A stretch of 64,000 nucleotides of DNA, from positions 177,506 through 241,505 of the forward strand of contig WRCC01000001.1 of the NCBI GenBank assembly GCA_009784235.1, given 5' to 3'. This document shows, in pieces, positions 3,689 to 60,628 of the stretch; the stretch's first letter is position 1, and each line of letters begins with the position of its first letter. Source of the DNA: Alphaproteobacteria bacterium. GTDB taxonomy: Bacteria > Pseudomonadota > Alphaproteobacteria > Rs-D84. The notes beneath the pieces were generated by a model. The model ran no database searches. It had not been told where the DNA came from and saw only the letters and a list, made by a program, of their open reading frames with translations. The position numbers and the translations under genes were made by a program.

Positions 3689-3794
3689 GTGGGCGGATTA
3701 TATCGTGTGGCGGTCTGATTTGCAATTCATTTTTGATTGTTATCCTTATACTTGATTTTTGTGTATTTTTATCTATAATTGTGTTGCTGCGAAT

Positions 3795-4087
3795 GCAGAG
3801 ATGATGCTGAATGCTCTATGAAATAGGTCTTTTGGACTGGGGGGCGGTACCCCACAGCTCCACCACTTGGGGCTGACATAGTTTCGACAGGGATTGAAAG
3901 ATAGAGAGTGTATCCAGCGTTGCTGCTGTGAAAGGCTGAAACAAAATGAATGCGAATGACAACATCCGCGTTAACTATGCAATGGCCGCTTAATTGCGCC
4001 GAATGCAAGAGCCAATAGGTAATTGCATTCATGCCACATAGTTGGGGCTTTCCCGTGCGCCTGGCACCAGAAGCACGGGATTTTTTA
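3795..4087 (+). ncRNA. ssrA: tmRNA (ssrA), circularly permuted two-piece form. Acceptor piece ends at CCA at 3865. Coding piece starts GGGGCTGA at 3869. Tag reading frame is 3952-3993. The RNA is followed by a rho-independent terminator.
   Basis: Sequence ...GGAC-TGGGG-GGCGGTA-CCCCA-CAGCTCC-A-CCA at 3834-3865 matches the tmRNA 3' T-arm and acceptor layout. It is followed 3 nt later by GGGGCTGACATAGTTTCGACAGGG, the conserved tmRNA 5' end. The tag ORF GCGAATGACAACATCCGCGTTAACTATGCAATGGCCGCTTAA encodes ANDNIRVNYAMAA*. Terminator stem is CCCGTGC/GCACGGG (4052-4079) plus T-run. 3'-before-5' order is the alphaproteobacterial two-piece arrangement. Confidence 0.8.
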
Positions 4088-5894: not shown

Positions 5895-6224
5895 ATGAAC
5901 TTGTTTCAAAAACGTAAAATCCGATATAATCTGTTTAAACGAATAACCACCTTTTCCAACGTTATGGTTGTTGAGCCGCGCGGCAATAATACTGGTTTTA
6001 CATATTTTAATAAATATTTAATATCTGCTGGACTATCAAATGTAGAGTTGATAATTGGAAAAACATCCACACCTGGACTGTGTTTTCCATCATATTATAT
6101 AACTGTACCATCTGGAGGTAAGCCCGATGAATTATCGGAATCTGTTAAACAATTAAAGTGGTCAGAGAACGAAAAATTGGCAAAAAAGCTTTTTCGCTTT
6201 TACAATAATAAAATTAAAACATGA
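5895..6224 (+). CDS. hypothetical small protein in AT-rich filler after truncated lon (possibly not a real gene)
   Basis: 109-aa ORF, very AT-rich, no recognisable domain; occupies the space where the Lon protease domain is missing. Confidence 0.2.
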   Translation: MNLFQKRKIRYNLFKRITTFSNVMVVEPRGNNTGFTYFNKYLISAGLSNVELIIGKTSTPGLCFPSYYITVPSGGKPDELSESVKQLKWSENEKLAKKLFRFYNNKIKT

Positions 6225-6802
6225 TTTTGATAATCGATGCTTCATCGCCGGGGATTCGTTTAGCATTACAGGTTGTATGCTGTTCTGTCATTCCGGCGAA
6301 GGCCGGACCGCCCATACAAAAATCGATCGAAACAGATAAACAATCGACCGCCCTGCCCATTGAAGTTGAATTTTTTTTAACCGAAAATGGCGTTACATTT
6401 CGCGATTTAATGGCGATTGGAATTGTCGTTGGACCGGGCAGTTTTACTGGGATTCGATTGGGTATTGCTTATGCAAAAGGTTTATCAATTGGATTGGGCG
6501 TGCCGGTTGTTCCGGTGAATGCGTTTGAAATTTATTTGGAACGCACCCCGGATGCTTTTGTTGCAATTGATTCAGGACGCGGTGATTTTTTTGTCGGTGC
6601 ACATGATTTAGTGCCAATGATTATGTCGATTGATGAGGTCGAAACGCAGCAGATGAAATACTCGTCGACTATCGGACATAAACCGTTTGATTTGACTGAT
6701 GCCCTGCCCGTCATTACGCGTAAATTATCCGGTGAAATTGAACCTGTGATACCATTATATATACGACCACATTATGCTGAAACAAATTGCAAATCTTCAT
6801 AA
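6221..6802 (+). CDS. tsaB: tRNA threonylcarbamoyladenosine biosynthesis protein TsaB (YeaZ-like)
   Basis: N-terminal MILIIDASS plus GPGSFTGIRLGIAYAKG motif of the inactive Kae1 paralogue; followed by rimI as is typical. Confidence 0.75.
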   Translation: MILIIDASSPGIRLALQVVCCSVIPAKAGPPIQKSIETDKQSTALPIEVEFFLTENGVTFRDLMAIGIVVGPGSFTGIRLGIAYAKGLSIGLGVPVVPVNAFEIYLERTPDAFVAIDSGRGDFFVGAHDLVPMIMSIDEVETQQMKYSSTIGHKPFDLTDALPVITRKLSGEIEPVIPLYIRPHYAETNCKSS

Positions 6803-7181
6803 ATTATGTTTCCCGAATAAGCCATGGAACGCGGATGAATTTGCATCGCTGCAAAAATCCGGATGTGAAATTTTGGCCAGTGATAATGGATTTATTGTTT
6901 TTCGTTGCGCTGCGGATGAATGCGAAATAATTACAATTGGGGTTGCGCCATATGCGCGTGGCACAGGCGTCGCCAGTACATTATTGCACTTGATGGAAAA
7001 TGATTTAAAAAATAAAAATATTAAAAAGATATTTCTGGAAGCTGCGGATGACAATCAACCTGCCCGTGCCTTGTATAAAAAACATGGATACAAGCAAATC
7101 GGCGTGCGGCCAAAATATTACGACGACATTGATGCGATTGTGATGGAAAAGATTTTATCCAACGAATTCCAAAACGCGTGA
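6774..7181 (+). CDS. rimI: ribosomal-protein-alanine N-acetyltransferase (GNAT)
   Basis: 135 aa; GNAT acetyl-CoA site RGTGVASTLL and the KHGY motif; overlaps tsaB 3' end. Confidence 0.7.
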   Translation: MLKQIANLHKLCFPNKPWNADEFASLQKSGCEILASDNGFIVFRCAADECEIITIGVAPYARGTGVASTLLHLMENDLKNKNIKKIFLEAADDNQPARALYKKHGYKQIGVRPKYYDDIDAIVMEKILSNEFQNA

Positions 7182-18540: not shown

Positions 18541-18568
18541 AAAAACGCCCCGATGGGGCGTTTTTTTT
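18541..18568 (+). terminator. rho-independent terminator, bidirectional (serves giant gene 2 and convergent rnpB)
   Basis: AAAAACGCCCCGATGGGGCGTTTTTTTT hairpin with flanking A and T runs. Confidence 0.75.
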
Positions 18569-18886
18569 AGACAAACTATAAGCCGGATTCTGTGGCGCGT
18601 GTTGACACGCCGGCCATAATCAATCTGCGTTTCGCGTTACCGCGAACGTCAAGCCGCCTACCCGCCAACTCTGGCGCGGGACGCGCCTGGGTCGTTTCCG
18701 ACCCGGGTTGGCCTATTTGGCGTTGCATCACATAGAGATTGCCCGTTTCATCCACCGCTTTCCGTGGTTCGTTTCTGTTGCTCTGATCGTCGGGTTACCC
18801 CGCGCGGCCGTTAACCGCTATGCCGTCCCGTGATGTCCGGACTTTCCTCGGCTCGCTTGCGCGGCCGCTATGGCCCGTTTGTCTGG
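18569..18886 (-). ncRNA. rnpB: RNase P RNA (rnpB), bacterial type A
   Basis: On the minus strand: GAGGAAAGTCCGG (P4 5' strand), GGTAACCCGACGATCAGAGCAACAGAAAC, CGCCAAATAGGCC, ACAGAATCCGGCTTAT (P4 3' strand) in the canonical order. P1 pairs CAGACAAAC with GTTTGTCTG. The 320-nt region is GC-rich and ORF-free in the six-frame track. Confidence 0.85.
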
Positions 18887-30323: not shown

Positions 30324-30377
30324 TGTATCAATTCTGTGAATTTTGGGCAAGAGGAAATAATAACAAACGAATAAAAT

Positions 30378-30398
30378 GGGGCGCATATTTGCGCCCCC
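30378..30398. repeat. palindromic element, short form (GGGGCGCATATTTGCGCCCCC); intergenic terminator-like
   Basis: Perfect GGGGCGCA/TGCGCCCC inverted repeat; member of the family seen at 33389, 40306, 41565, 49992, 54092, 60606. Confidence 0.8.
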
Positions 30399-31689: not shown

Positions 31690-32541
31690 TCAATGGGATA
31701 TTTTTCGAACTGCGCGAAGATGGGCGCTGCGGGCGCGTGGGTTGTGTGAAAGCTCGGCATCTGATGGCGTAAATGTCTTTAATAATTTGAATGGTGCAGC
31801 AATTGTGATGGGCAAACGTGGGTCACCAGGCGATGTCGTCCATTCGCGAAAAGTGTTTTTGACCAGTCGGTCTTCCAATGAATGAAATGTCACAATTGCG
31901 CAAATTCCATCTGGCTTTAATAATTCTGGCACTGCGGCCAACGCGGATTCGATTTCGCCCATTTCATCGTTGACCGCGATGCGAAGTGCTTGGAACACCG
32001 GCGCGATGTCTTTTGGATTATGTATTAAATCGCGCAATTCGAACGTGGTCGTGGGCAACGTGTCTTTCATAGCGCGTGCGATTGGCCCAGCTTTTTTAAC
32101 ATCACCGTAATCGGCCAAAATCCGGGCTAATTCTGCGACGGTTGAATTTTCAATCAATTCAGCGGCGGTGTGTGGCGCATTTCCCATTCGCATATCCAGT
32201 GTCGCATCAAAACGAAATGAAAATCCACGTTCCGGCGTATCAATTTGCATAGATGAAATACCCAAATCGAAAACGATTGCATCAATGATTTCTGATTTAT
32301 GATTTATGATTTCTGAAAATGGTTCGTTAATAAATTGGAATTTTCCGGGAAATTCGTTGGCCAATTTTTCTGCGATTGGTGCGACGGTCGCATCGCGGTC
32401 GAATGCAATTACGTTTGCGCCGCATTCCAAAAAAGCACGCGAATATCCGCCGGCGCCAAATGTGCAATCGACGATTGTCTTGCCATTTATATCATCAAGT
32501 GTTTGCAAAACTTCATTCAATAAAACGGGTATATGGTTCAT
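31690..32541 (-). CDS. rsmH: 16S rRNA (cytosine1402-N4)-methyltransferase RsmH (MraW)
   Basis: HIPVLLNEVL start, SAM site DCTFGAGGYS, GISSMQID motif; ATGA overlap with mtaB stop. Confidence 0.85.
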   Translation of the reverse strand: MNHIPVLLNEVLQTLDDINGKTIVDCTFGAGGYSRAFLECGANVIAFDRDATVAPIAEKLANEFPGKFQFINEPFSEIINHKSEIIDAIVFDLGISSMQIDTPERGFSFRFDATLDMRMGNAPHTAAELIENSTVAELARILADYGDVKKAGPIARAMKDTLPTTTFELRDLIHNPKDIAPVFQALRIAVNDEMGEIESALAAVPELLKPDGICAIVTFHSLEDRLVKNTFREWTTSPGDPRLPITIAAPFKLLKTFTPSDAELSHNPRARSAHLRAVRKISH

Positions 32542-33734
32542 ATTGGCGTCCCTGTGAAATACAATTCTTTGGCGGATTTGATACCGGTTAATTTTACATT
32601 CATTATTGTTCGTTCGGGAATCGGACATCCGGAAATTTTTACCGGGATGTCGTCGGGCGTGCGGCCGATATTATTTGATTCAACCAAGATTTGCGCAGTA
32701 CGCCCAATTTGCGAATTCATAAATTCGCGCATATTGGCGGCGGCAATTTCGGTTGCGATTTTAACGCGGCGCTTTGATTCTGTGCGATGCACCTGGCCCG
32801 GCATTGATGCGGCGGGTGTGCCCGGACGCGGACTGAATGGAAATGCATGCAATCGTATTGGTTTTAATTCGCGTATTAAATCACATGTTTCATTGAAATG
32901 TTCTTCTGTTTCGCCGGGAAATCCGCAGATAAGGTCCCATGAAAAAGTCACACCATTCGCGTAATTGCTTAATTCACGCACCATTTGTGTGGTATGACGA
33001 CGACCCATTTTTGCAAGTATTTCATTGCAGCCCGATTGCATTGATAAATGCATGTGCGATAACATTCGCGGGTTTTCATGCATCAAATCAACAATGCTGC
33101 GCAGCGGTACGCCCGGGTCCAATGATGATAATCGCAAGCGTTGTAAATTCGCATCATTGAACAACAGATTTTTACATAAAATTGCAATGTTTTGATAACT
33201 GGCGATGTCCACACCGGTTAAAACAATTTCACCGTATCCGTTTGCGGTTAATGCGCGTGTGGCCGCCAGAATTTGTTCATACGGAAACGATACATTTTTC
33301 CCGCGCAGAATTCGCGTAATGCAATAAGAGCACGCGTGATTGCATCCGTTTTGTATTTGGACCAGGCCCTTGGAAAGGGATGAATGTTGTAGGGGCGCAT
33401 ATTTGCGCCCCAGGGCGCGAGTACGCGCCCCTACATATTTCGTTGCATCCAGTTTATCTTTGTTATGGATGGTGGCCGCCACGCCAGGGATTTTTTCAAA
33501 ATCGCTCGGTGAATGTGTGGCGGCGCAGCCGGTTACATAAATTGGCATATCTGGGTTTTCACGGGCCAATCGTCGAACGGCTTGGCGCGATTGCTTTTCG
33601 GCTTCGGATGTCACGGCGCATGTGTTAACCACAATGCCGCGCTGGATTCCGCTGTCTGCCAACAAGCCCGCGATTTTATCCCCTTCCAGGATATTCAGGC
33701 GGCATCCAAATGGTACGGAGCGTATATTTTTCAT
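32538..33734 (-). CDS. mtaB: MiaB-family radical-SAM methylthiotransferase (MtaB-like), carrying an in-frame palindromic-element insertion
   Basis: MTTase N-domain (VNTCAVTSEAE). Radical SAM CxxxCxxC (GCNHACSYC). TRAM-like C-terminus. The linker contains 16 residues (VGARTRALGRKYAPLQ) encoded by the palindromic repeat. Confidence 0.8.
   Translation of the reverse strand: MKNIRSVPFGCRLNILEGDKIAGLLADSGIQRGIVVNTCAVTSEAEKQSRQAVRRLARENPDMPIYVTGCAATHSPSDFEKIPGVAATIHNKDKLDATKYVGARTRALGRKYAPLQHSSLSKGLVQIQNGCNHACSYCITRILRGKNVSFPYEQILAATRALTANGYGEIVLTGVDIASYQNIAILCKNLLFNDANLQRLRLSSLDPGVPLRSIVDLMHENPRMLSHMHLSMQSGCNEILAKMGRRHTTQMVRELSNYANGVTFSWDLICGFPGETEEHFNETCDLIRELKPIRLHAFPFSPRPGTPAASMPGQVHRTESKRRVKIATEIAAANMREFMNSQIGRTAQILVESNNIGRTPDDIPVKISGCPIPERTIMNVKLTGIKSAKELYFTGTPI
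33389..33436. repeat. palindromic element, composite long form, inserted in-frame within mtaB
   Basis: GTAGGGGCGCATATTTGCGCCCCAGGGCGCGAGTACGCGCCCCTACAT is 48 nt (a multiple of 3); the ORF reads through it. Confidence 0.8.
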
Positions 33735-40280: not shown

Positions 40281-40305
40281 CATCATGCGCGACGAAAATA
40301 TACAA

Positions 40306-40328
40306 GGGGCGCAAATATGCGCCCCTAC
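40306..40328. repeat. palindromic element, short form (GGGGCGCAAATATGCGCCCCTAC); bidirectional terminator between convergent genes
   Basis: Inverted repeat GGGGCGCA/TGCGCCCC; family member. Confidence 0.8.
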
Positions 40329-40347: not shown

Positions 40348-41352
40348 TTAACAACAGGCGTAACCACACGGTGGATTTTCATGGGTACAATCCATACACG
40401 TCGGCCAATCGCACGTCTCTAGTCCTTGATTCCAAACCGTGCCGTACGGGCATCGCATGCAGAATGGAAGTACTTCTGTGCCCCACCATCCGCTGTTGTA
40501 CGAACATATAATATATTCGTCACAATCAAACGGGTTTGCCATAAAGATACCCATAATATCGCCAATTCCGCCAGGATGCGGAGGGCACATGTCAACAGTA
40601 ATGGATTCTGGGTTGTGGCAAGGATTTGAAGGGAGTTCATAAATACATTGGTCACCTTCCATATAAAAATTCATAGCACATCGGGTCAGAGTACAATTAC
40701 CGCAAGGTTTTCCATCACCCGGACAGACTTGCTGGCGATGCGCACCTACTTCTATGGCGCTGCCGCATGGGAACAATCCGCGCTGGCATACGCATTTACC
40801 AAATGCTGAACTCCATTGCATACCAATGGGACACTTTTTACATGTCGCAACACCATTAACGCATTCATAATAAAAGAATCTGGATTGACATGCGCCCCAG
40901 CTGCCATCAGGTAACAATGCGGACGAGCAATTCAAAGTAGCGGGGTGCGAAAAGAATATATTTGATGCACCCGGCGGACAAGTTGGCGCGGTCGCGGCCG
41001 GGCAAGCGCCCGGCGAGGATAAGTCTATTTGCCAATCGCGGGCACAACTGGATGCTGGCGGTGTTGTGTCTGGGATGCATACGCCGTCGGATATGATGCC
41101 GCCGGGACAGCTTACAGAACATCCGCCCTGGAAATGATATGTGCCCAGATCATCTGTAAATGTTTGTGATTGTGGAACATTGCAAACCGAACCAAATTGC
41201 CAGATTAAATCCAAAGGATTCGGCGCAGTTGCAGTATTTCCAGTACTGGTATCAAAAGCAGGACAAGTTAAATTTAATGGACCAACAGCAAATGCAGACG
41301 TGACAAAGCACAGAGTACCCATCACAAACATGGATAGTATTGTTTTTTTCAT
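40348..41352 (-). CDS. secreted Cys-rich protein with C-terminal peritrophin-A (CBM14) chitin-binding domain
   Basis: Signal peptide MKKTILSMFVMGTLCFVTSAFA. C-terminal CPPHPGG...NPFDCDEYIICSYNSGWWGTEVLPFCMRCPYGTVWNQGLETCDWPTC fits the 6-Cys CBM14 consensus (C..G...P.DC..Y..C..G....C..G..FN....CDWP). Confidence 0.65.
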   Translation of the reverse strand: MKKTILSMFVMGTLCFVTSAFAVGPLNLTCPAFDTSTGNTATAPNPLDLIWQFGSVCNVPQSQTFTDDLGTYHFQGGCSVSCPGGIISDGVCIPDTTPPASSCARDWQIDLSSPGACPAATAPTCPPGASNIFFSHPATLNCSSALLPDGSWGACQSRFFYYECVNGVATCKKCPIGMQWSSAFGKCVCQRGLFPCGSAIEVGAHRQQVCPGDGKPCGNCTLTRCAMNFYMEGDQCIYELPSNPCHNPESITVDMCPPHPGGIGDIMGIFMANPFDCDEYIICSYNSGWWGTEVLPFCMRCPYGTVWNQGLETCDWPTCMDCTHENPPCGYACC

Positions 41353-41468: not shown

Positions 41469-41556
41469 TGGCGGAGATGAGGAGATTCGAACTCCTGATA
41501 CCTTGCGGTATACTCGCTTTCCAAGCGAGCGCACTAGACCACTATGCGACATCTCC
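41469..41556 (-). tRNA. tRNA-Ser (anticodon GGA), CCA encoded, long variable arm
   Basis: Reverse complement: GGAGATG acceptor, anticodon loop TTGGAAA, 12-nt variable stem-loop, T-arm CAGGAG-TTCGAAT-CTCCT. Confidence 0.9.
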
Positions 41557-41564
41557 GGAAAAAT

Positions 41565-41613
41565 GTAGGGGCGCATTGAATGCGCCCAGGTGGGCGTGCG
41601 CAGCACGCCCCTA
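41565..41613. repeat. palindromic element, composite long form, between tRNA-Ser and rplY
   Basis: GTAGGGGCGCATTGAATGCGCCCAGGTGGGCGTGCGCAGCACGCCCCTAT: two nested inverted repeats, same architecture as the mtaB and alaS copies. Confidence 0.75.
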
Positions 41614-41617
41614 TATA

Positions 41618-48246: not shown

Positions 48247-49995
48247 ATGACATACAGCCAAATTAGAAAAGCGTTTCTTGACTATATGGAACAGCATGGA
48301 CATAAAATTGTACCATCGGCATCGCTGATTCCAGATGACCCAACATTATTATTTACTGTTGCCGGAATGGTTCCGTTCAAGGGCGTGTTTTTGGGCACTG
48401 AACCGGCGCCCGCGCCGCGCGTTGCAGATTCGCAGAAATGTATTCGCGCAGGCGGCAAGCATAATGATTTAGAAGATGTCGGATTCAACGGCCGGCATCA
48501 TACTTTCTTTGAAATGCTGGGTAATTGGTCTTTTGGCGATTATTTCAAGCAAGGCGCAATTGAAATGTCATGGGATTTGTTGACCAATGTTTTGAAAATT
48601 GACCCAGCGCGATTGGTTGTAACAACGCACACCAGCGACGATGAAGCAACCGAAATTTGGAAAAAATTAACCGGTAAAGATGCTATACGCCTGGGCGATA
48701 AATCAAACTGGTGGTCGGCGGGCGATGTTGGGCCATGTGGACCATCCACAGAAATATTTTATGATTACGGACCGAATGTCGCGGGCGGATTGCCCGGCAC
48801 ACCGGACGAAGATGGCGACCGATACGTCGAAATCTGGAACAATGTTTTTATGGAATTTAATCGCGATGCGGATGGCGTGTTAAGCCCATTGCCCCATAAA
48901 AATGTCGATACCGGTGCGGGATTGGAACGCTGGGCCGCAATGCTGCAAGGCGTGACCAGCAATTACGATACAGATTTATTCGTCGCATTGCGTCGCGCAG
49001 TTGGCGAAGTCACGAGTGTCACAGAAACCCCAGAAAATACCGTATCTTTTAAAATAATTTCCGACCATTTGCGCAGCGTTGGATTTGCAATCGCAGATGG
49101 CGTTGTCCCGTCGAATACGGAACGCGGATATGTCGTGCGCCGTATTTTGCGCCGCGCAATGCGTCATGGCCAGGTTTTGGGTCATCGCGGGGCGTTGTTG
49201 TCGCGTTTGTACCCTGCCCTGGTTTCACAAATGGGTGATGCGTATCCTGAATTGGCGCGTGAACAATCGCGCGTTATCGCGACGATTGAAAAAGAAGAAC
49301 GCGCGTTTGAAGACATGCTGCACAACGGCTTGAAGTTATTGGAAAAAGAAGTTCCAAATGTGACAGGCGGCACAATGGCCGGCGATGTTGCGTTCAAGCT
49401 TTATGATACATACGGATTTCCGTTGGATTTAACGCAAACGATTTTGCGCGAACGTGGAATTGATGTTGATATCGCTGGGTTTGATGCGGCAATGGCCGAA
49501 CAAAAAGAACGGTCGCGTTCATCGCAAACATTCAAAGGCGGATTGGCCGACCACGATACCGAAACAACGAAGTTGCATACGGCGACACACTTGCTGCACG
49601 CCGCTTTGCGCAAAGTTTTGGGCAATGGCGTCGAACAAAAAGGCAGCAATATAACGCCGGAACGCTTGCGATTTGATTTTTCATTCGACCGACGTGTTGA
49701 ACCAAATGAATTGGCCGAAGTTGAACGCATTGTTAATGACGCCATCGCCGCCGCAGTGCCAATTGTTTGCAATGAAATGTCTGTTGCAGATGCCAAGGCA
49801 GCGGGCGCAATTGGATTATTCGAAGACAAATATGGTGACGCGGTTATGGTATATTCTGCGGGCGATTGGTCGCGCGAAATATGCGGTGGACCACACGTTG
49901 CAAATACATCCGAAATCGGCACATTCAAAATCAAAAAAGAAGAATCCAGCGCCGCCGGAATCCGCCGAATCAAAGCAGTCGTGGGTAATTCGTAG
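48247..49995 (+). CDS. alaS: alanine--tRNA ligase, short form (catalytic, tRNA-recognition and editing domains; no C-Ala domain)
   Basis: Class II motifs (FTVAGMVPFK, GNWSFGDYFK), editing-site HxxxH (HTATHLLH) and CGGPHV, ending ...IRRIKAVVGNS*. 582 aa against ~870 typical. The TAG stop lies within a palindromic element. Confidence 0.8.
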   Translation: MTYSQIRKAFLDYMEQHGHKIVPSASLIPDDPTLLFTVAGMVPFKGVFLGTEPAPAPRVADSQKCIRAGGKHNDLEDVGFNGRHHTFFEMLGNWSFGDYFKQGAIEMSWDLLTNVLKIDPARLVVTTHTSDDEATEIWKKLTGKDAIRLGDKSNWWSAGDVGPCGPSTEIFYDYGPNVAGGLPGTPDEDGDRYVEIWNNVFMEFNRDADGVLSPLPHKNVDTGAGLERWAAMLQGVTSNYDTDLFVALRRAVGEVTSVTETPENTVSFKIISDHLRSVGFAIADGVVPSNTERGYVVRRILRRAMRHGQVLGHRGALLSRLYPALVSQMGDAYPELAREQSRVIATIEKEERAFEDMLHNGLKLLEKEVPNVTGGTMAGDVAFKLYDTYGFPLDLTQTILRERGIDVDIAGFDAAMAEQKERSRSSQTFKGGLADHDTETTKLHTATHLLHAALRKVLGNGVEQKGSNITPERLRFDFSFDRRVEPNELAEVERIVNDAIAAAVPIVCNEMSVADAKAAGAIGLFEDKYGDAVMVYSAGDWSREICGGPHVANTSEIGTFKIKKEESSAAGIRRIKAVVGNS

Positions 49996-50028
49996 GGGCC
50001 CTTGGGCGCGGTTTCCGCGCCCCTACAT
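49992..50028. repeat. palindromic element, composite form, containing the alaS stop codon
   Basis: GTAGGGGCCCTTGGGCGCGGTTTCCGCGCCCCTACAT; TAG at 49993-49995. Confidence 0.75.
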
Positions 50029-53454: not shown

Positions 53455-54063
53455 CTAATACCAGATTCTGAACCGGATTTTCCAATTCGTGTTTGTGATA
53501 TTTGTTGTAATACCGCTGGTTTTATGCGAAACCCAAAAATTTTCGCCAGCGACGGCCAAGCGGGCGCGAACGCCATTTGCATCCGTGAACAAGAATGGAC
53601 GCGGGTTTGTACGATTGCCTATACCAAATGCATATACAATTTCGCCGATTTGATATCCGGCATCTGGTGTTTGGCATATTAATACCGCGTCGGCCATGGC
53701 GCGTGCGACATCAAGCCCGGGCAATTGTCCAAATATCATTTCTTGGAACGAAGTTGTCGATATGGTTGCAGATTCCATGTTCACGAAGTTCGGCAAGGCC
53801 GGTGCAGCGAATGCATATCCGGCCAGGTGGCCTGCGATACGTGCATCCAATTCTTCGTCTGATATGCCGCCACATACGCCGTCGCCACCGGCAATAATTT
53901 CCGCCAAATCAGCGGCGCGGGCCAACGGAATACCACCCAATGTCGCGCCATCATGCACGCGTACGGTCTTTGCGTCTGTATCCACAGTGATTTCACCCAT
54001 TGCACCGGTAAAGTTTGCATGTTCGGCCGCCGTCCCGCGGCGAATTTGTATTTGTCTTGTCAT
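53455..54063 (-). CDS. phage tail-fibre-like protein with Mtd (major tropism determinant) N-terminal-type domain
   Basis: N-terminus MTRQIQIRRGTAAEHANFTGAMGEITVDTDAKTVRVHDGATLGGIPLARAADL closely parallels the Bordetella phage BPP-1 Mtd N-terminus (FRGGTTAQHATFTGAAREITVDTDKNTVVVHDGATAGGFPLAR). 202 aa; no lectin-fold C-terminus. Confidence 0.55.
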   Translation of the reverse strand: MTRQIQIRRGTAAEHANFTGAMGEITVDTDAKTVRVHDGATLGGIPLARAADLAEIIAGGDGVCGGISDEELDARIAGHLAGYAFAAPALPNFVNMESATISTTSFQEMIFGQLPGLDVARAMADAVLICQTPDAGYQIGEIVYAFGIGNRTNPRPFLFTDANGVRARLAVAGENFWVSHKTSGITTNITNTNWKIRFRIWY

Positions 54064-54091: not shown

Positions 54092-54114
54092 GGGGCGCAA
54101 ATATGCGCCCCTAC
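54092..54114. repeat. palindromic element, short form (GGGGCGCAAATATGCGCCCCTAC)
   Basis: Identical core to the copy at 40306. Confidence 0.8.
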
Positions 54115-60605: not shown

Positions 60606-60628
60606 GAGGCGCAAATATGCGCCCTTAC
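60606..60628. repeat. palindromic element, degenerate short form (GAGGCGCAAATATGCGCCCTTAC); bidirectional terminator
   Basis: Two substitutions relative to the consensus core; directly after the bamD stop. Confidence 0.65.

What the first reader, a model, noticed from the sequence alone, without database searches (positions are those of the whole stretch)
33389..33436. Palindromic repeat element inserted in-frame inside the essential radical-SAM gene mtaB
The 48-nt composite palindrome GTAGGGGCGCATATTTGCGCCCCAGGGCGCGAGTACGCGCCCCTACAT sits in the linker between the MTTase N-domain and the radical-SAM CxxxCxxC of a MiaB-family protein. The ORF is read straight through it (…KYVGARTRALGRKYAPLQHSS…). 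The same element family otherwise occurs intergenically. In-frame invasion of protein genes by selfish palindromes is the hallmark of Rickettsia palindromic elements, but this sequence family differs (GC-rich, GGGGCGC core).
Basis: seen in the sequence. Interest (0 to 1): 0.72.

Follow-up and report, generated by a model that had tools for sequence, protein, structure and literature searches.

The report
REP doublet read through in mtaB
A 46-base pair of inverted "GTAG-type" repetitive palindromes (REPs), normally found between genes, sits in frame in the floppy linker of the tRNA-modifying enzyme MtaB in an uncultured alphaproteobacterium; this is real, but it is a further example of something already described for REPs.

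Summary
At 33389-33434 two inverted 23-nt palindromes, each headed by GTAG, lie inside the intact 398-aa mtaB ORF (32538-33734, minus strand). They encode residues about 100-116, between the UPF0004 and radical-SAM domains.

One half (GTAGGGGCGCATATTTGCGCCCC) is identical to intergenic copies at 40306 and 54092 and close to those at 30375 and 60606. Further doublets lie at 41565-41614 and 49992-50026.

The element is a GTAG-tagged REP doublet (REPIN/BIME-like), not a Rickettsia palindromic element. The same compact doublet occurs in related termite-gut metagenome contigs, both intergenically and in frame in tsaB-like and trmB genes. RAYT-like Y1 transposases with the same REP type occur in related MAGs.

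None of 119 MtaB orthologues carries these residues. However, the linker is hypervariable and ours is not longer (20 aa against a median of 23), so a clean "+16 aa" insertion cannot be shown.

The MtaB linker is a recurrent landing site: other lineages carry a single REP or palindromes of roughly 150-180 nt there. AlphaFold gives low confidence only for residues 103-115.

Intragenic GTAG REPs, including dimers in tRNA-modification genes, were described by Di Nocera et al. 2013. This is a new member of a known kind, and "essential" is an overstatement.

The parts
33389..33434 (.). 46-nt REP doublet (REPIN/BIME-like): GTAG-GGGCGCATATTTGCGCCC-C A GGGCGCGAGTACGCGCCC-CTAC, with the GTAG heads pointing outward. 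With the complementary flanking T (33388) and A (33435) it is 48 nt, or 16 codons.
   Evidence: Fold z-scores are -6.1 (RNA) and -6.5 (DNA). The same compact 46-nt doublet occurs in L120, L125/L134 and L142.
33389..33411 (+). REP-A: GTAGGGGCGCATATTTGCGCCCC (GTAG head, 7-bp stem, 4-nt loop)
   Evidence: 0 mismatches to the copies at 40306-40328 and 54092-54114.
33412..33434 (-). REP-B: GTAGGGGCGCGTACTCGCGCCCT as read on the minus strand. It differs from REP-A at 4 positions, including a compensatory A-T to G-C change in the stem.
   Evidence: The same REP-B variant is paired with REP-A in L142, and close variants in L120, L125, L117 and L123.
32538..33734 (-). mtaB (MiaB-family radical-SAM methylthiotransferase), 398 aa, intact. 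The element encodes about Y100-Q116.
   Evidence: All 92 invariant columns are kept, including C11, C39, C70 and C131/C135/C138. AF2 gives pLDDT 88.4, with only residues 103-115 below 50.
30375..30397 (-). Intergenic single REP (head degenerate), terminator-like on the minus strand
40306..40328 (+). Intergenic single REP between convergent genes, terminator-like on both strands
41565..41614 (.). Intergenic REP doublet of variant sequence (GTAGGGGCGCATTGAATGCGCCC ... GGGCGTGCGCAGCACGCCCCTAT), next to tRNA-Ser
49992..50026 (.). REP (partial doublet) abutting the alaS 3' end. The TAG of its GTAG head (49993-49995) is the stop codon of ORF 48247..49995.
54092..54114 (+). Intergenic single REP between divergent genes
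60606..60628 (+). Intergenic degenerate REP (2 mismatches) between convergent genes

Best explanation
The element is a doublet of two inverted GTAG-headed repetitive extragenic palindromes (REPs), that is, a compact REPIN/BIME-like unit. It belongs to a REP family that is abundant in this uncultured alphaproteobacterium and its termite-gut relatives.

Inferred: such units are non-autonomous. They are spread in trans by a RAYT (TnpA-REP, an HUH/Y1 transposase), which recognises the folded single-stranded hairpin together with its GTAG head.

Shown: one copy occupies the inter-domain linker of mtaB, immediately after the codon of the invariant Tyr100. Because the unit is 3n long and is read in the GTA-GGG frame (the G-TAG frame would stop translation), the ORF stays open. 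About 16 residues (VGARTRALGRKYAPLQ) now make up most of a linker that is disordered and hypervariable in the whole family, so the enzyme very probably still works.

Inferred: the insert is a tolerated neutral passenger rather than an adaptation. Unlike the intergenic copies, which sit at gene 3' ends and look like terminators, this copy has no U-tract and should not terminate transcription.
For: Family identity:
- The 23-mer is identical to intergenic copies in the same window.
- A GTAG head is present on 50 of about 66 hairpins of this family across the window and related contigs, with a pyrimidine at position -1 in 49 of 50.
- The same 46-nt doublet is found at four loci in at least three genomes.
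- REPs of the same stem and GTAG tag occur in arrays in Pantoea, Rheinheimera and others.

RAYT link:
- L100:791-1498 has NF047646 'REP-associated tyrosine transposase' as its only NCBIfam hit (E = 1e-14).
- Its homologues are named RayT by JGI.
- The RAYT loci L156-L160 each carry their own genome's REP variant in and next to the gene. L156 also holds the window's REP-A.

Derived state:
- None of 119 orthologues has the REP-coded residues.

Tolerance:
- All catalytic Cys residues and 92 invariant columns are kept.
- In the AF2 model the only low-confidence segment is 103-115, with no secondary structure across 100-121.
- The sequence is identical in three assemblies.

Recurrence in coding DNA:
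- The doublet is in frame in tsaB-like (L142) and trmB (L134/L125) genes.
- A single REP lies in the same MtaB linker in L154.
- Palindromes of roughly 150-180 nt lie in the same linker in L161 and L162.

No terminator:
- The terminator scan calls the intergenic copies but not this one.

Precedent:
- Intragenic GTAG REPs and dimers, and the flexible-linker argument, are in PMC3733652.
Against: - No RAYT gene is present in the 64-kb window, and the rest of the genome could not be read. Mobilisation by a cognate RAYT is therefore inferred from relatives.
- No close relative with an empty site was found; the nearest orthologue is 63-65% identical.
- The linker is not longer than in orthologues: 20 residues against a median of 23. 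A simple additive insertion would imply an ancestral linker of about 4 residues, shorter than any observed (minimum 17). Replacement, later trimming or conversion must also be invoked.
- Translation of the insert and MtaB activity are untested.
Confidence: 0.8

Rival explanations
1. The REP doublet did not transpose into the gene. It replaced the native linker by recombination, gene conversion or template switching with another REP copy, or an older decayed copy was 'refreshed' by conversion. This would explain why the linker length did not change.
For: - The linker is not longer than in orthologues.
- In the tsaB-like gene the L142 doublet and a different segment of nearly the same length occupy the same site in the window's orthologue, with boundaries GTA...TAC in both.
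- The P0022 linker (GGKYAPV...GGTAAATATGCCCCGGTA) looks like a decayed copy at the same place.
- Each genome's intragenic REP matches that genome's own REP variant.
Against: - No donor or recipient intermediates were seen.
- The linker is hypervariable, so equal length may be coincidence followed by trimming.
- The compact doublet has the same boundaries at unrelated loci, as expected for a discrete mobile unit.
Confidence: 0.15
2. The insertion inactivated mtaB. The ORF is an intact-looking recent pseudogene, or the insert impairs the enzyme.
For: - The perfect match of REP-A to other copies suggests a recent event.
- MtaB is dispensable in model bacteria (established knowledge, not tested here).
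Against: - There are no stops or frameshifts, and all 92 invariant columns, including six cluster-binding Cys residues, are kept.
- The AF2 model is confident outside residues 103-115.
- Orthologues tolerate linkers of 17-69 residues, including other palindrome-coded inserts.
- The 4-nt start/stop overlap with rsmH is retained.
Confidence: 0.07
3. It is a Rickettsia palindromic element (RPE) or a relative.
For: It shows in-frame occurrence in housekeeping genes of a host-associated alphaproteobacterium, and the behaviour is alike.
Against: The unit is 46 nt with GTAG heads and a GGGCGC stem. According to PMC3733652, the short intragenic R. conorii repeats (RPE-4 and RPE-6) were found among the CGTC-tagged REPs, and RPE-1 is a longer palindrome. 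Rfam has no hit at the site.
Confidence: 0.02
4. The palindrome is a functional RNA or DNA signal selected within mtaB, for example a translational pause site, an mRNA-stability element or a gyrase/IHF site for the mtaB-rsmH operon.
For: - The mRNA hairpin is very stable at -36.4 kcal/mol.
- REPs are reported to act in mRNA stabilisation and to bind proteins (abstracts).
- REPs recur at conserved positions in signal-peptide coding regions of orthologous genes.
Against: - The insert is absent from all 119 orthologues.
- Other lineages carry unrelated palindromes at the same spot, which points to permissiveness rather than a specific function.
- There is no U-tract.
Confidence: 0.05

Closest known systems
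GTAG-tagged REPs, REPINs and BIMEs associated with RAYT (TnpA-REP) Y1 transposases (Nunvar 2010, PMC2817692; Di Nocera 2013, PMC3733652; Bertels 2017, PMC5581495)
   Same: - A 5' GTAG head followed by a GC-rich hairpin of about 20 nt.
- Many copies, mostly at gene 3' ends.
- Inverted doublets.
- RAYT-like genes decorated with the same REP type in related genomes.
- Intragenic single and dimeric copies already reported, including in tRNA-modification genes and in flexible linkers.
   Different: - The cognate RAYT is not seen in this window.
- The doublet is very compact (46 nt, 1-nt spacer).
- In the related contigs sampled, in-frame copies are strikingly frequent (mtaB, tsaB-like, trmB, signal peptides, the RAYT ORF itself).
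- The family has not been described in these uncultured alphaproteobacteria.
Rickettsia palindromic elements (RPE)
   Same: Selfish palindromes read through in frame in conserved genes of a host-associated alphaproteobacterium, and tolerated in surface loops or linkers.
   Different: - No sequence similarity.
- RPE-1 is a longer palindrome (PMC3733652), and the short RPE-4/6 were found among the CGTC-tagged REPs (PMC3733652).
- No dedicated transposase is known for RPEs, whereas this family has a RAYT association in relatives.
Rho-independent terminator hairpins
   Same: The intergenic copies at 40305-40326 and 30378-30397 are the top terminator-like sites in the scan.
   Different: The mtaB copy has no T/U run. 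The hairpin carries a conserved GTAG head and is repeated verbatim around the genome.
Bacterial MITEs inserted in frame (for example Correia and Nezha, reviewed in PMC3184786 and PMC10969869)
   Same: Non-autonomous palindromic DNA that occasionally extends or decorates ORFs.
   Different: MITEs are 70-300 bp with terminal inverted repeats and usually target-site duplications. This unit is 46-48 nt, built from two REPs, with no evident duplication.

Membership tests
GTAG-type REP / REPIN (RAYT-associated) | Short (20-40 nt) GC-rich imperfect palindrome able to form a hairpin | tested here: met
   23-nt units with a 7-bp stem and 4-nt loop. The doublet folds at -22.5 kcal/mol as ssDNA, z = -6.5.
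GTAG-type REP / REPIN (RAYT-associated) | Conserved GTAG tetranucleotide at one end of the palindrome | tested here: met
   Both halves of the mtaB doublet, and the copies at 40306 and 54092, carry GTAG/CTAC. 50 of about 66 hairpins in the window and related contigs are GTAG-headed, with position -1 a pyrimidine in 49 of 50.
GTAG-type REP / REPIN (RAYT-associated) | Multicopy and predominantly extragenic, near 3' ends of genes | tested here: met
   There are 7 loci in 64 kb. Six are intergenic or abut a stop codon. The whole-genome count was not obtainable.
GTAG-type REP / REPIN (RAYT-associated) | Occurrence as inverted pairs (REPIN/BIME) | tested here: met
   Doublets occur at 33389-33434, 41565-41614 and 49992-50026, and in L117, L120, L123, L125/L134 and L142.
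GTAG-type REP / REPIN (RAYT-associated) | A cognate RAYT gene in the same genome, flanked by the same REPs | not testable with these tools
In related MAG and metagenome contigs the feature is met. L100 has NF047646 as its only NCBIfam hit, E = 1e-14, at 54.6 bits, below the 80-bit cutoff. L156-L160 carry REPs in and beside the RAYT gene.
GTAG-type REP / REPIN (RAYT-associated) | Cleavage or mobilisation of the REP by the RAYT | not testable with these tools
   This needs biochemistry or population data.
Rickettsia palindromic elements (RPE) | Sequence and structure match to an RPE family (RPE-1 a longer palindrome; the short RPE-4/6 among the CGTC-tagged REPs) | tested here: not met
   The unit is 46 nt and GTAG-tagged. 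The description of RPEs is taken from PMC3733652. No direct alignment to RPE sequences was possible.
Rickettsia palindromic elements (RPE) | In-frame presence in functional protein genes | tested here: met
   mtaB is read through with all conserved residues kept. This concerns behaviour only and does not establish membership.
Intrinsic terminator | GC-rich hairpin followed by a U-tract at the end of a transcription unit | tested here: not met
   The scan does not call the mtaB copy. Downstream on the sense strand is CUACAACAUUCAUCC. The intergenic copies are called.

The most novel reading that the evidence does not exclude
In this lineage of termite-gut alphaproteobacteria, GTAG-REP doublets may not be merely extragenic passengers but a systematic decorator of coding sequence.

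They appear to land after TAY/TTY-type sites in a frame that stays open. In the sampled contigs they supply:
- linker segments in three tRNA-modification enzymes (MtaB, TsaB-like, TrmB);
- parts of signal peptides conserved between orthologues;
- stop codons, through the TAG of GTAG (alaS, rbfA, RAYT);
- segments of the variable middle of the RAYT ORF itself.

This would be a RAYT-driven equivalent of the Rickettsia RPE phenomenon, together with an undescribed REPtron architecture in which the REPs lie inside the transposase gene.
Probability: 0.25. Interest if true: 0.6.

Novelty: new member of a known kind. Interest (0 to 1): 0.36.

Why it matters
It adds a clean, assembly-replicated case of a REP doublet translated inside a conserved enzyme. 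It also identifies the MtaB inter-domain linker as a site that different palindromic elements have entered repeatedly.

For annotation, peptides such as VGA...APLQ in uncultured alphaproteobacterial proteins are repeat-derived and should not be read as functional motifs.

For mobile-element biology, the set of related contigs offers natural material to study how REP/REPIN units enter coding DNA and which frames and sites are tolerated. That set includes in-frame doublets in three tRNA-modification genes, REPs inside RAYT ORFs and stop codons donated by GTAG. The general phenomenon is already published, so the finding by itself does not open a new question.

Tried and rejected
It never reached the source genome, so a whole-genome genic/intergenic table was not possible. 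It did reveal the GTAG/CTAC tag across taxa.

2. A search for a RAYT found nothing in the window or in L115-L151:
- tblastn with E. coli YafM recalled from memory;
- an HUH...YxxNP regular expression over all six-frame ORFs, which also missed the real RAYT in L100, so the pattern was too strict;
- tblastn of the window with the L100 RAYT.

3. L115, which has two REP clusters 2 kb apart, was checked for a RAYT between them. It holds rpiA-like and serA-like genes of a gammaproteobacterium, an ordinary BIME array.

4. Showing a clean +16-aa insertion by alignment failed, because the linker is unalignable and ours is short.

5. The tsaB-like site was tried as a filled/empty comparison. The window's orthologue has a different segment of similar length at the site, and PDB TsaB alignments begin only after it. 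The result is inconclusive.

6. Rfam has no family at the element.

7. Assembly artefact was rejected, because the DNA is identical in three assemblies.

8. An ancestral palindromic linker was rejected, because the residues are absent from 119 orthologues and the DNA is identical to intergenic copies.

Full report
**1. What is there**

It consists of two 23-nt units.
- On the plus strand: GTAG-GGGCGC-ATATTT-GCGCCC-C (33389-33411).
- On the minus strand: GTAG-GGGCGC-GTACTC-GCGCCC-T (33434-33412).

The GTAG heads point outward and the hairpins are separated by one base. The second unit differs from the first at four positions, one pair of which is a compensatory A-T to G-C change in the stem.

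The 60-nt stretch folds far better than shuffled controls: RNA -36.4 kcal/mol (z = -6.1) and DNA -22.5 kcal/mol (z = -6.5).

The element lies inside ORF 32538..33734 on the minus strand, 398 aa, which reads straight through it as ...KYVGARTRALGRKYAPLQHSS....
- The protein is MtaB: TIGR01579 at 312.9 bits, UPF0004 at residues 8-85 and Radical_SAM at 126-287.
- The element therefore encodes about residues 100-116 of the inter-domain linker.
- The gene DNA is identical in two further independent assemblies, which excludes an assembly artefact.

**2. The repeat family in the window**

The 23-mer GGGGCGCAAATATGCGCCCCTAC, the reverse complement of the first unit, recurs as follows:
- exactly at 40306 and 54092;
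- with 3 mismatches at 30375;
- with 2 mismatches at 60606.

The expected number of matches is 0.00. All four copies are intergenic.

A search for the head GTAGGGGCG found two more doublets of variant sequence.
- One lies at 41565-41614, next to tRNA-Ser.
- The other lies at 49992-50026. There the TAG of GTAG is the stop codon of a 582-aa alanyl-tRNA synthetase.

The copies at 40305-40326 (both strands) and 30378-30397 are the top-scoring terminator-like sites in a consensus scan. The mtaB copy has no T-run and is not called. Rfam has no family here.

**3. What kind of repeat it is**

A GTAG head followed by a GC-rich hairpin, arranged in inverted pairs, is the signature of GTAG-tagged REPs (REPIN/BIME units) associated with RAYT Y1 transposases (PMC2817692, PMC3733652).

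A scan of representative genomes with the hairpin core returned REP arrays in Pantoea, Rheinheimera and others. These carry the same GGGGCGCA...TGCGCCCC stem and GTAG/CTAC tags.

A scan of metagenomes with the exact 20-mer returned 37 contigs, mostly from termite-gut metagenomes. Several of them are syntenic with the window at 70-83% nucleotide identity.

Across the window and these relatives:
- 50 of about 66 hairpins are GTAG-headed;
- position -1 is a pyrimidine in 49 of 50.

The compact 46-nt doublet REP-B + REP-A, with identical boundaries, occurs at four loci: the window's mtaB, L120, L125/L134 and L142. This is what is expected of a discrete mobile unit.

**4. Link to a transposase**

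The window itself has no RAYT.

In the termite-gut MAG contig L100, a 235-aa ORF has NF047646 'REP-associated tyrosine transposase' as its only NCBIfam hit.
- The hit is E = 1e-14 at 54.6 bits, below the 80-bit equivalog cutoff.
- The ORF has the HUH motif PNHVHFII and the Tyr motif YIINNP.
- Its homologues are labelled RayT by JGI.
- It is flanked by a GTAG REP whose TAG is its stop codon.
- It contains an inverted REP pair in frame. Removing that segment in silico turns the two-piece profile match into one contiguous match.

The homologous loci L156-L160 each carry, inside and beside the RAYT ORF, that genome's own REP variant. L156 also holds the window's REP-A.

Association of this REP family with RAYT-like genes is therefore shown in relatives and inferred for the source genome.

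**5. Is it an insertion?**

None of the other 119 best MtaB orthologues has the REP-coded residues. The nearest is only 63-65% identical. Together with the 23/23 identity to intergenic copies, this makes an ancestral linker untenable and the REP a derived feature.

However, the segment between the invariant Tyr100 and Ser121 is hypervariable. It is 20 residues here, against a median of 23 and a range of 17-69. The '+16 aa' picture is therefore not demonstrable. Either the native linker was largely replaced or trimmed, or conversion is involved. This is kept as a rival explanation.

The same linker is a recurrent landing site.
- P0016 (L154) has a single REP, GGGGCGCGTGGCCACGCGCCCCTAC, in frame, immediately before the same His-Ser-Ser residues.
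- P0012 (L161) and P0018 (L162) have near-perfect palindromes of roughly 150-180 nt there (linker folds of about -120 kcal/mol).
- The L162 insert begins TAC|GTAGGGGC directly after the invariant Tyr codon, as in the window (TAT|GTAGGGGCG).

**6. Consequences for the protein**

- All 92 invariant alignment columns are kept. These include the three N-domain Cys residues and the CxxxCxxC motif.
- AlphaFold2 gives mean pLDDT 88.4 and pTM 0.81.
- Its only segment below pLDDT 50 is residues 103-115, and no secondary structure is predicted across 100-121.

The insert therefore sits in a disordered surface linker, and the enzyme is most likely functional. This is inferred, not tested.

The reading frame matters. 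On the strand where GTAG is read, one frame gives TAG. The frame used here, and in the other in-frame doublets, is GTA-GGG (V-G-A...).

**7. Other coding occurrences in relatives**

- The same doublet is in frame in a TsaB-like protein (L142: DNVGAHICAPGREYAPLQKS) and in TrmB (L134/L125: DNVGAHTCAPGREYAPLQTS).
- Single REPs encode GAQ(I/L)CAPT within the predicted signal peptides of M23-peptidase and outer-membrane-like proteins, in orthologues from different contigs.
- The TAG of GTAG serves as a stop codon for alaS (window), rbfA (L120) and the L100 RAYT.

**8. Comparison with what is known, and verdict**

Di Nocera et al. 2013 (PMC3733652) already report:
- GTAG and CGTC REPs inside genes;
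- more than half of them as dimers or clusters encoding 20-30 aa;
- cases in tRNA synthetases and pseudouridine synthases;
- cases at the same site in orthologous recB genes;
- the argument that such inserts are neutral because they lie in flexible linkers.

They also place the short intragenic R. conorii repeats (RPE-4 and RPE-6) among the CGTC-tagged REPs, which are distinct from the GTAG family seen here.

The finding is therefore real and correctly read in outline, but it is a new member of a known kind. The description of mtaB as essential is not supported by established knowledge of MtaB/YqeV.

The more unusual aspects lie beyond the finding's coordinates and were only partly followed up:
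- the density of in-frame REPs in this lineage;
- REPs inside RAYT ORFs;
- the repeatedly invaded MtaB linker.

Noticed in passing
L100:791-1498(-); L156:6001-6627; L157:6001-6606; L159:6001-6594: RAYT-like Y1 transposase ORFs of termite-gut alphaproteobacterial MAGs each contain, in frame in their variable middle region, an inverted pair of their own genome's GTAG REP (peptides such as VGAHNCAP...GAQLCAPT). They also have REPs immediately upstream or overlapping the stop codon. The literature read here describes REPs only as flanking RAYT genes.
   Followed up: partly
L142:2855-3430(-), compared with window 6221-6802(+), site 6268-6310: The same 46-nt REP doublet is in frame near the N-terminus of a TsaB-like protein in a syntenic relative. 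At the same site the window's orthologue has a different segment of similar length (VVCCSVIPAKAGPPI). Its DNA starts GTAT, ends CATAC and contains the hairpin TCCGGCGAAGGCCGGA. It may be a decayed or different element.
   Followed up: partly
L134:7058-7915(-) (same as L125): TrmB (Methyltransf_4) carries the REP doublet in frame (VGAHTCAPGREYAPLQ). It also carries a second repeat-like peptide upstream (PSCGGVARSAGVV...HPVGFADTPPQEGN).
   Followed up: partly
L135:~5958-7112(+) / L048; L117:8280-9395(+); L144:6805-7584(+); L125:509-1405(-): Single REPs encode GAQ(I/L)CAPT inside the predicted signal peptides of M23-peptidase (EnvC-like) and outer-membrane-like proteins, at the same position in orthologues from different contigs.
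   Followed up: partly
window 48247-49995(+) and 49992-50026: The alanyl-tRNA synthetase is only 582 aa. It ends just after the tRNA_SAD domain, with no room for a C-terminal domain such as long AlaRS proteins have, and its stop codon is the TAG of a REP's GTAG head. A relative (L159/L160) also has a 581-aa AlaRS, so the short form seems typical of the lineage. rbfA in L120 and the RAYT in L100 also stop at a REP TAG.
   Followed up: partly
L161:4001-5410 (P0012) and L162:2050-3543 (P0018); also P0008: The MtaB linkers of other termite-gut lineages hold near-perfect palindromes of roughly 150-180 nt (linker folds about -120 kcal/mol, motifs ACTCCCCCC...GGGGGGAGT), translated in frame and giving linkers of 55-69 aa. 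This is a second, MITE-like element family invading the same site.
   Followed up: partly
L154:276-1835 (P0016): Another MtaB has a single REP of a different variant (GGGGCGCGTGGCCACGCGCCCCTAC) in frame at the same linker position, directly before the His-Ser-Ser residues shared with the window's protein.
   Followed up: partly
window 41565-41614: A variant REP doublet lies immediately beside tRNA-Ser(GGA) (41469-41556, minus strand).
   Followed up: no
window 53455-54063(-): A 202-aa ORF has an Mtd_N domain (N-terminal domain of the phage major tropism determinant, E = 5e-17). This hints at a diversity-generating-retroelement target or a phage remnant. A REP lies just upstream, at 54092.
   Followed up: no
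window 40348-41352(-): A 334-aa ORF has a CBM_14 chitin-binding peritrophin-A domain, which is mostly a eukaryotic (arthropod) domain. This is consistent with an insect-gut or insect-associated lifestyle.
   Followed up: no
window 3748-4082(+); 18563-18886(-): A permuted (two-piece) alphaproteobacterial tmRNA and a class A RNase P RNA are present. They confirm an alphaproteobacterial origin.
   Followed up: no
L001-L114 (for example L010, L015, L064, L076 in Pantoea; L007, L023, L079 in Rheinheimera; L009/L044/L077 in MAG OZ251456.1): Distant taxa carry REP arrays with the same GGGGCGCA-WWWW-TGCGCCCC hairpin and GTAG/CTAC tag. This REP stem type is either widespread or convergent across Proteobacteria.
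   Followed up: no
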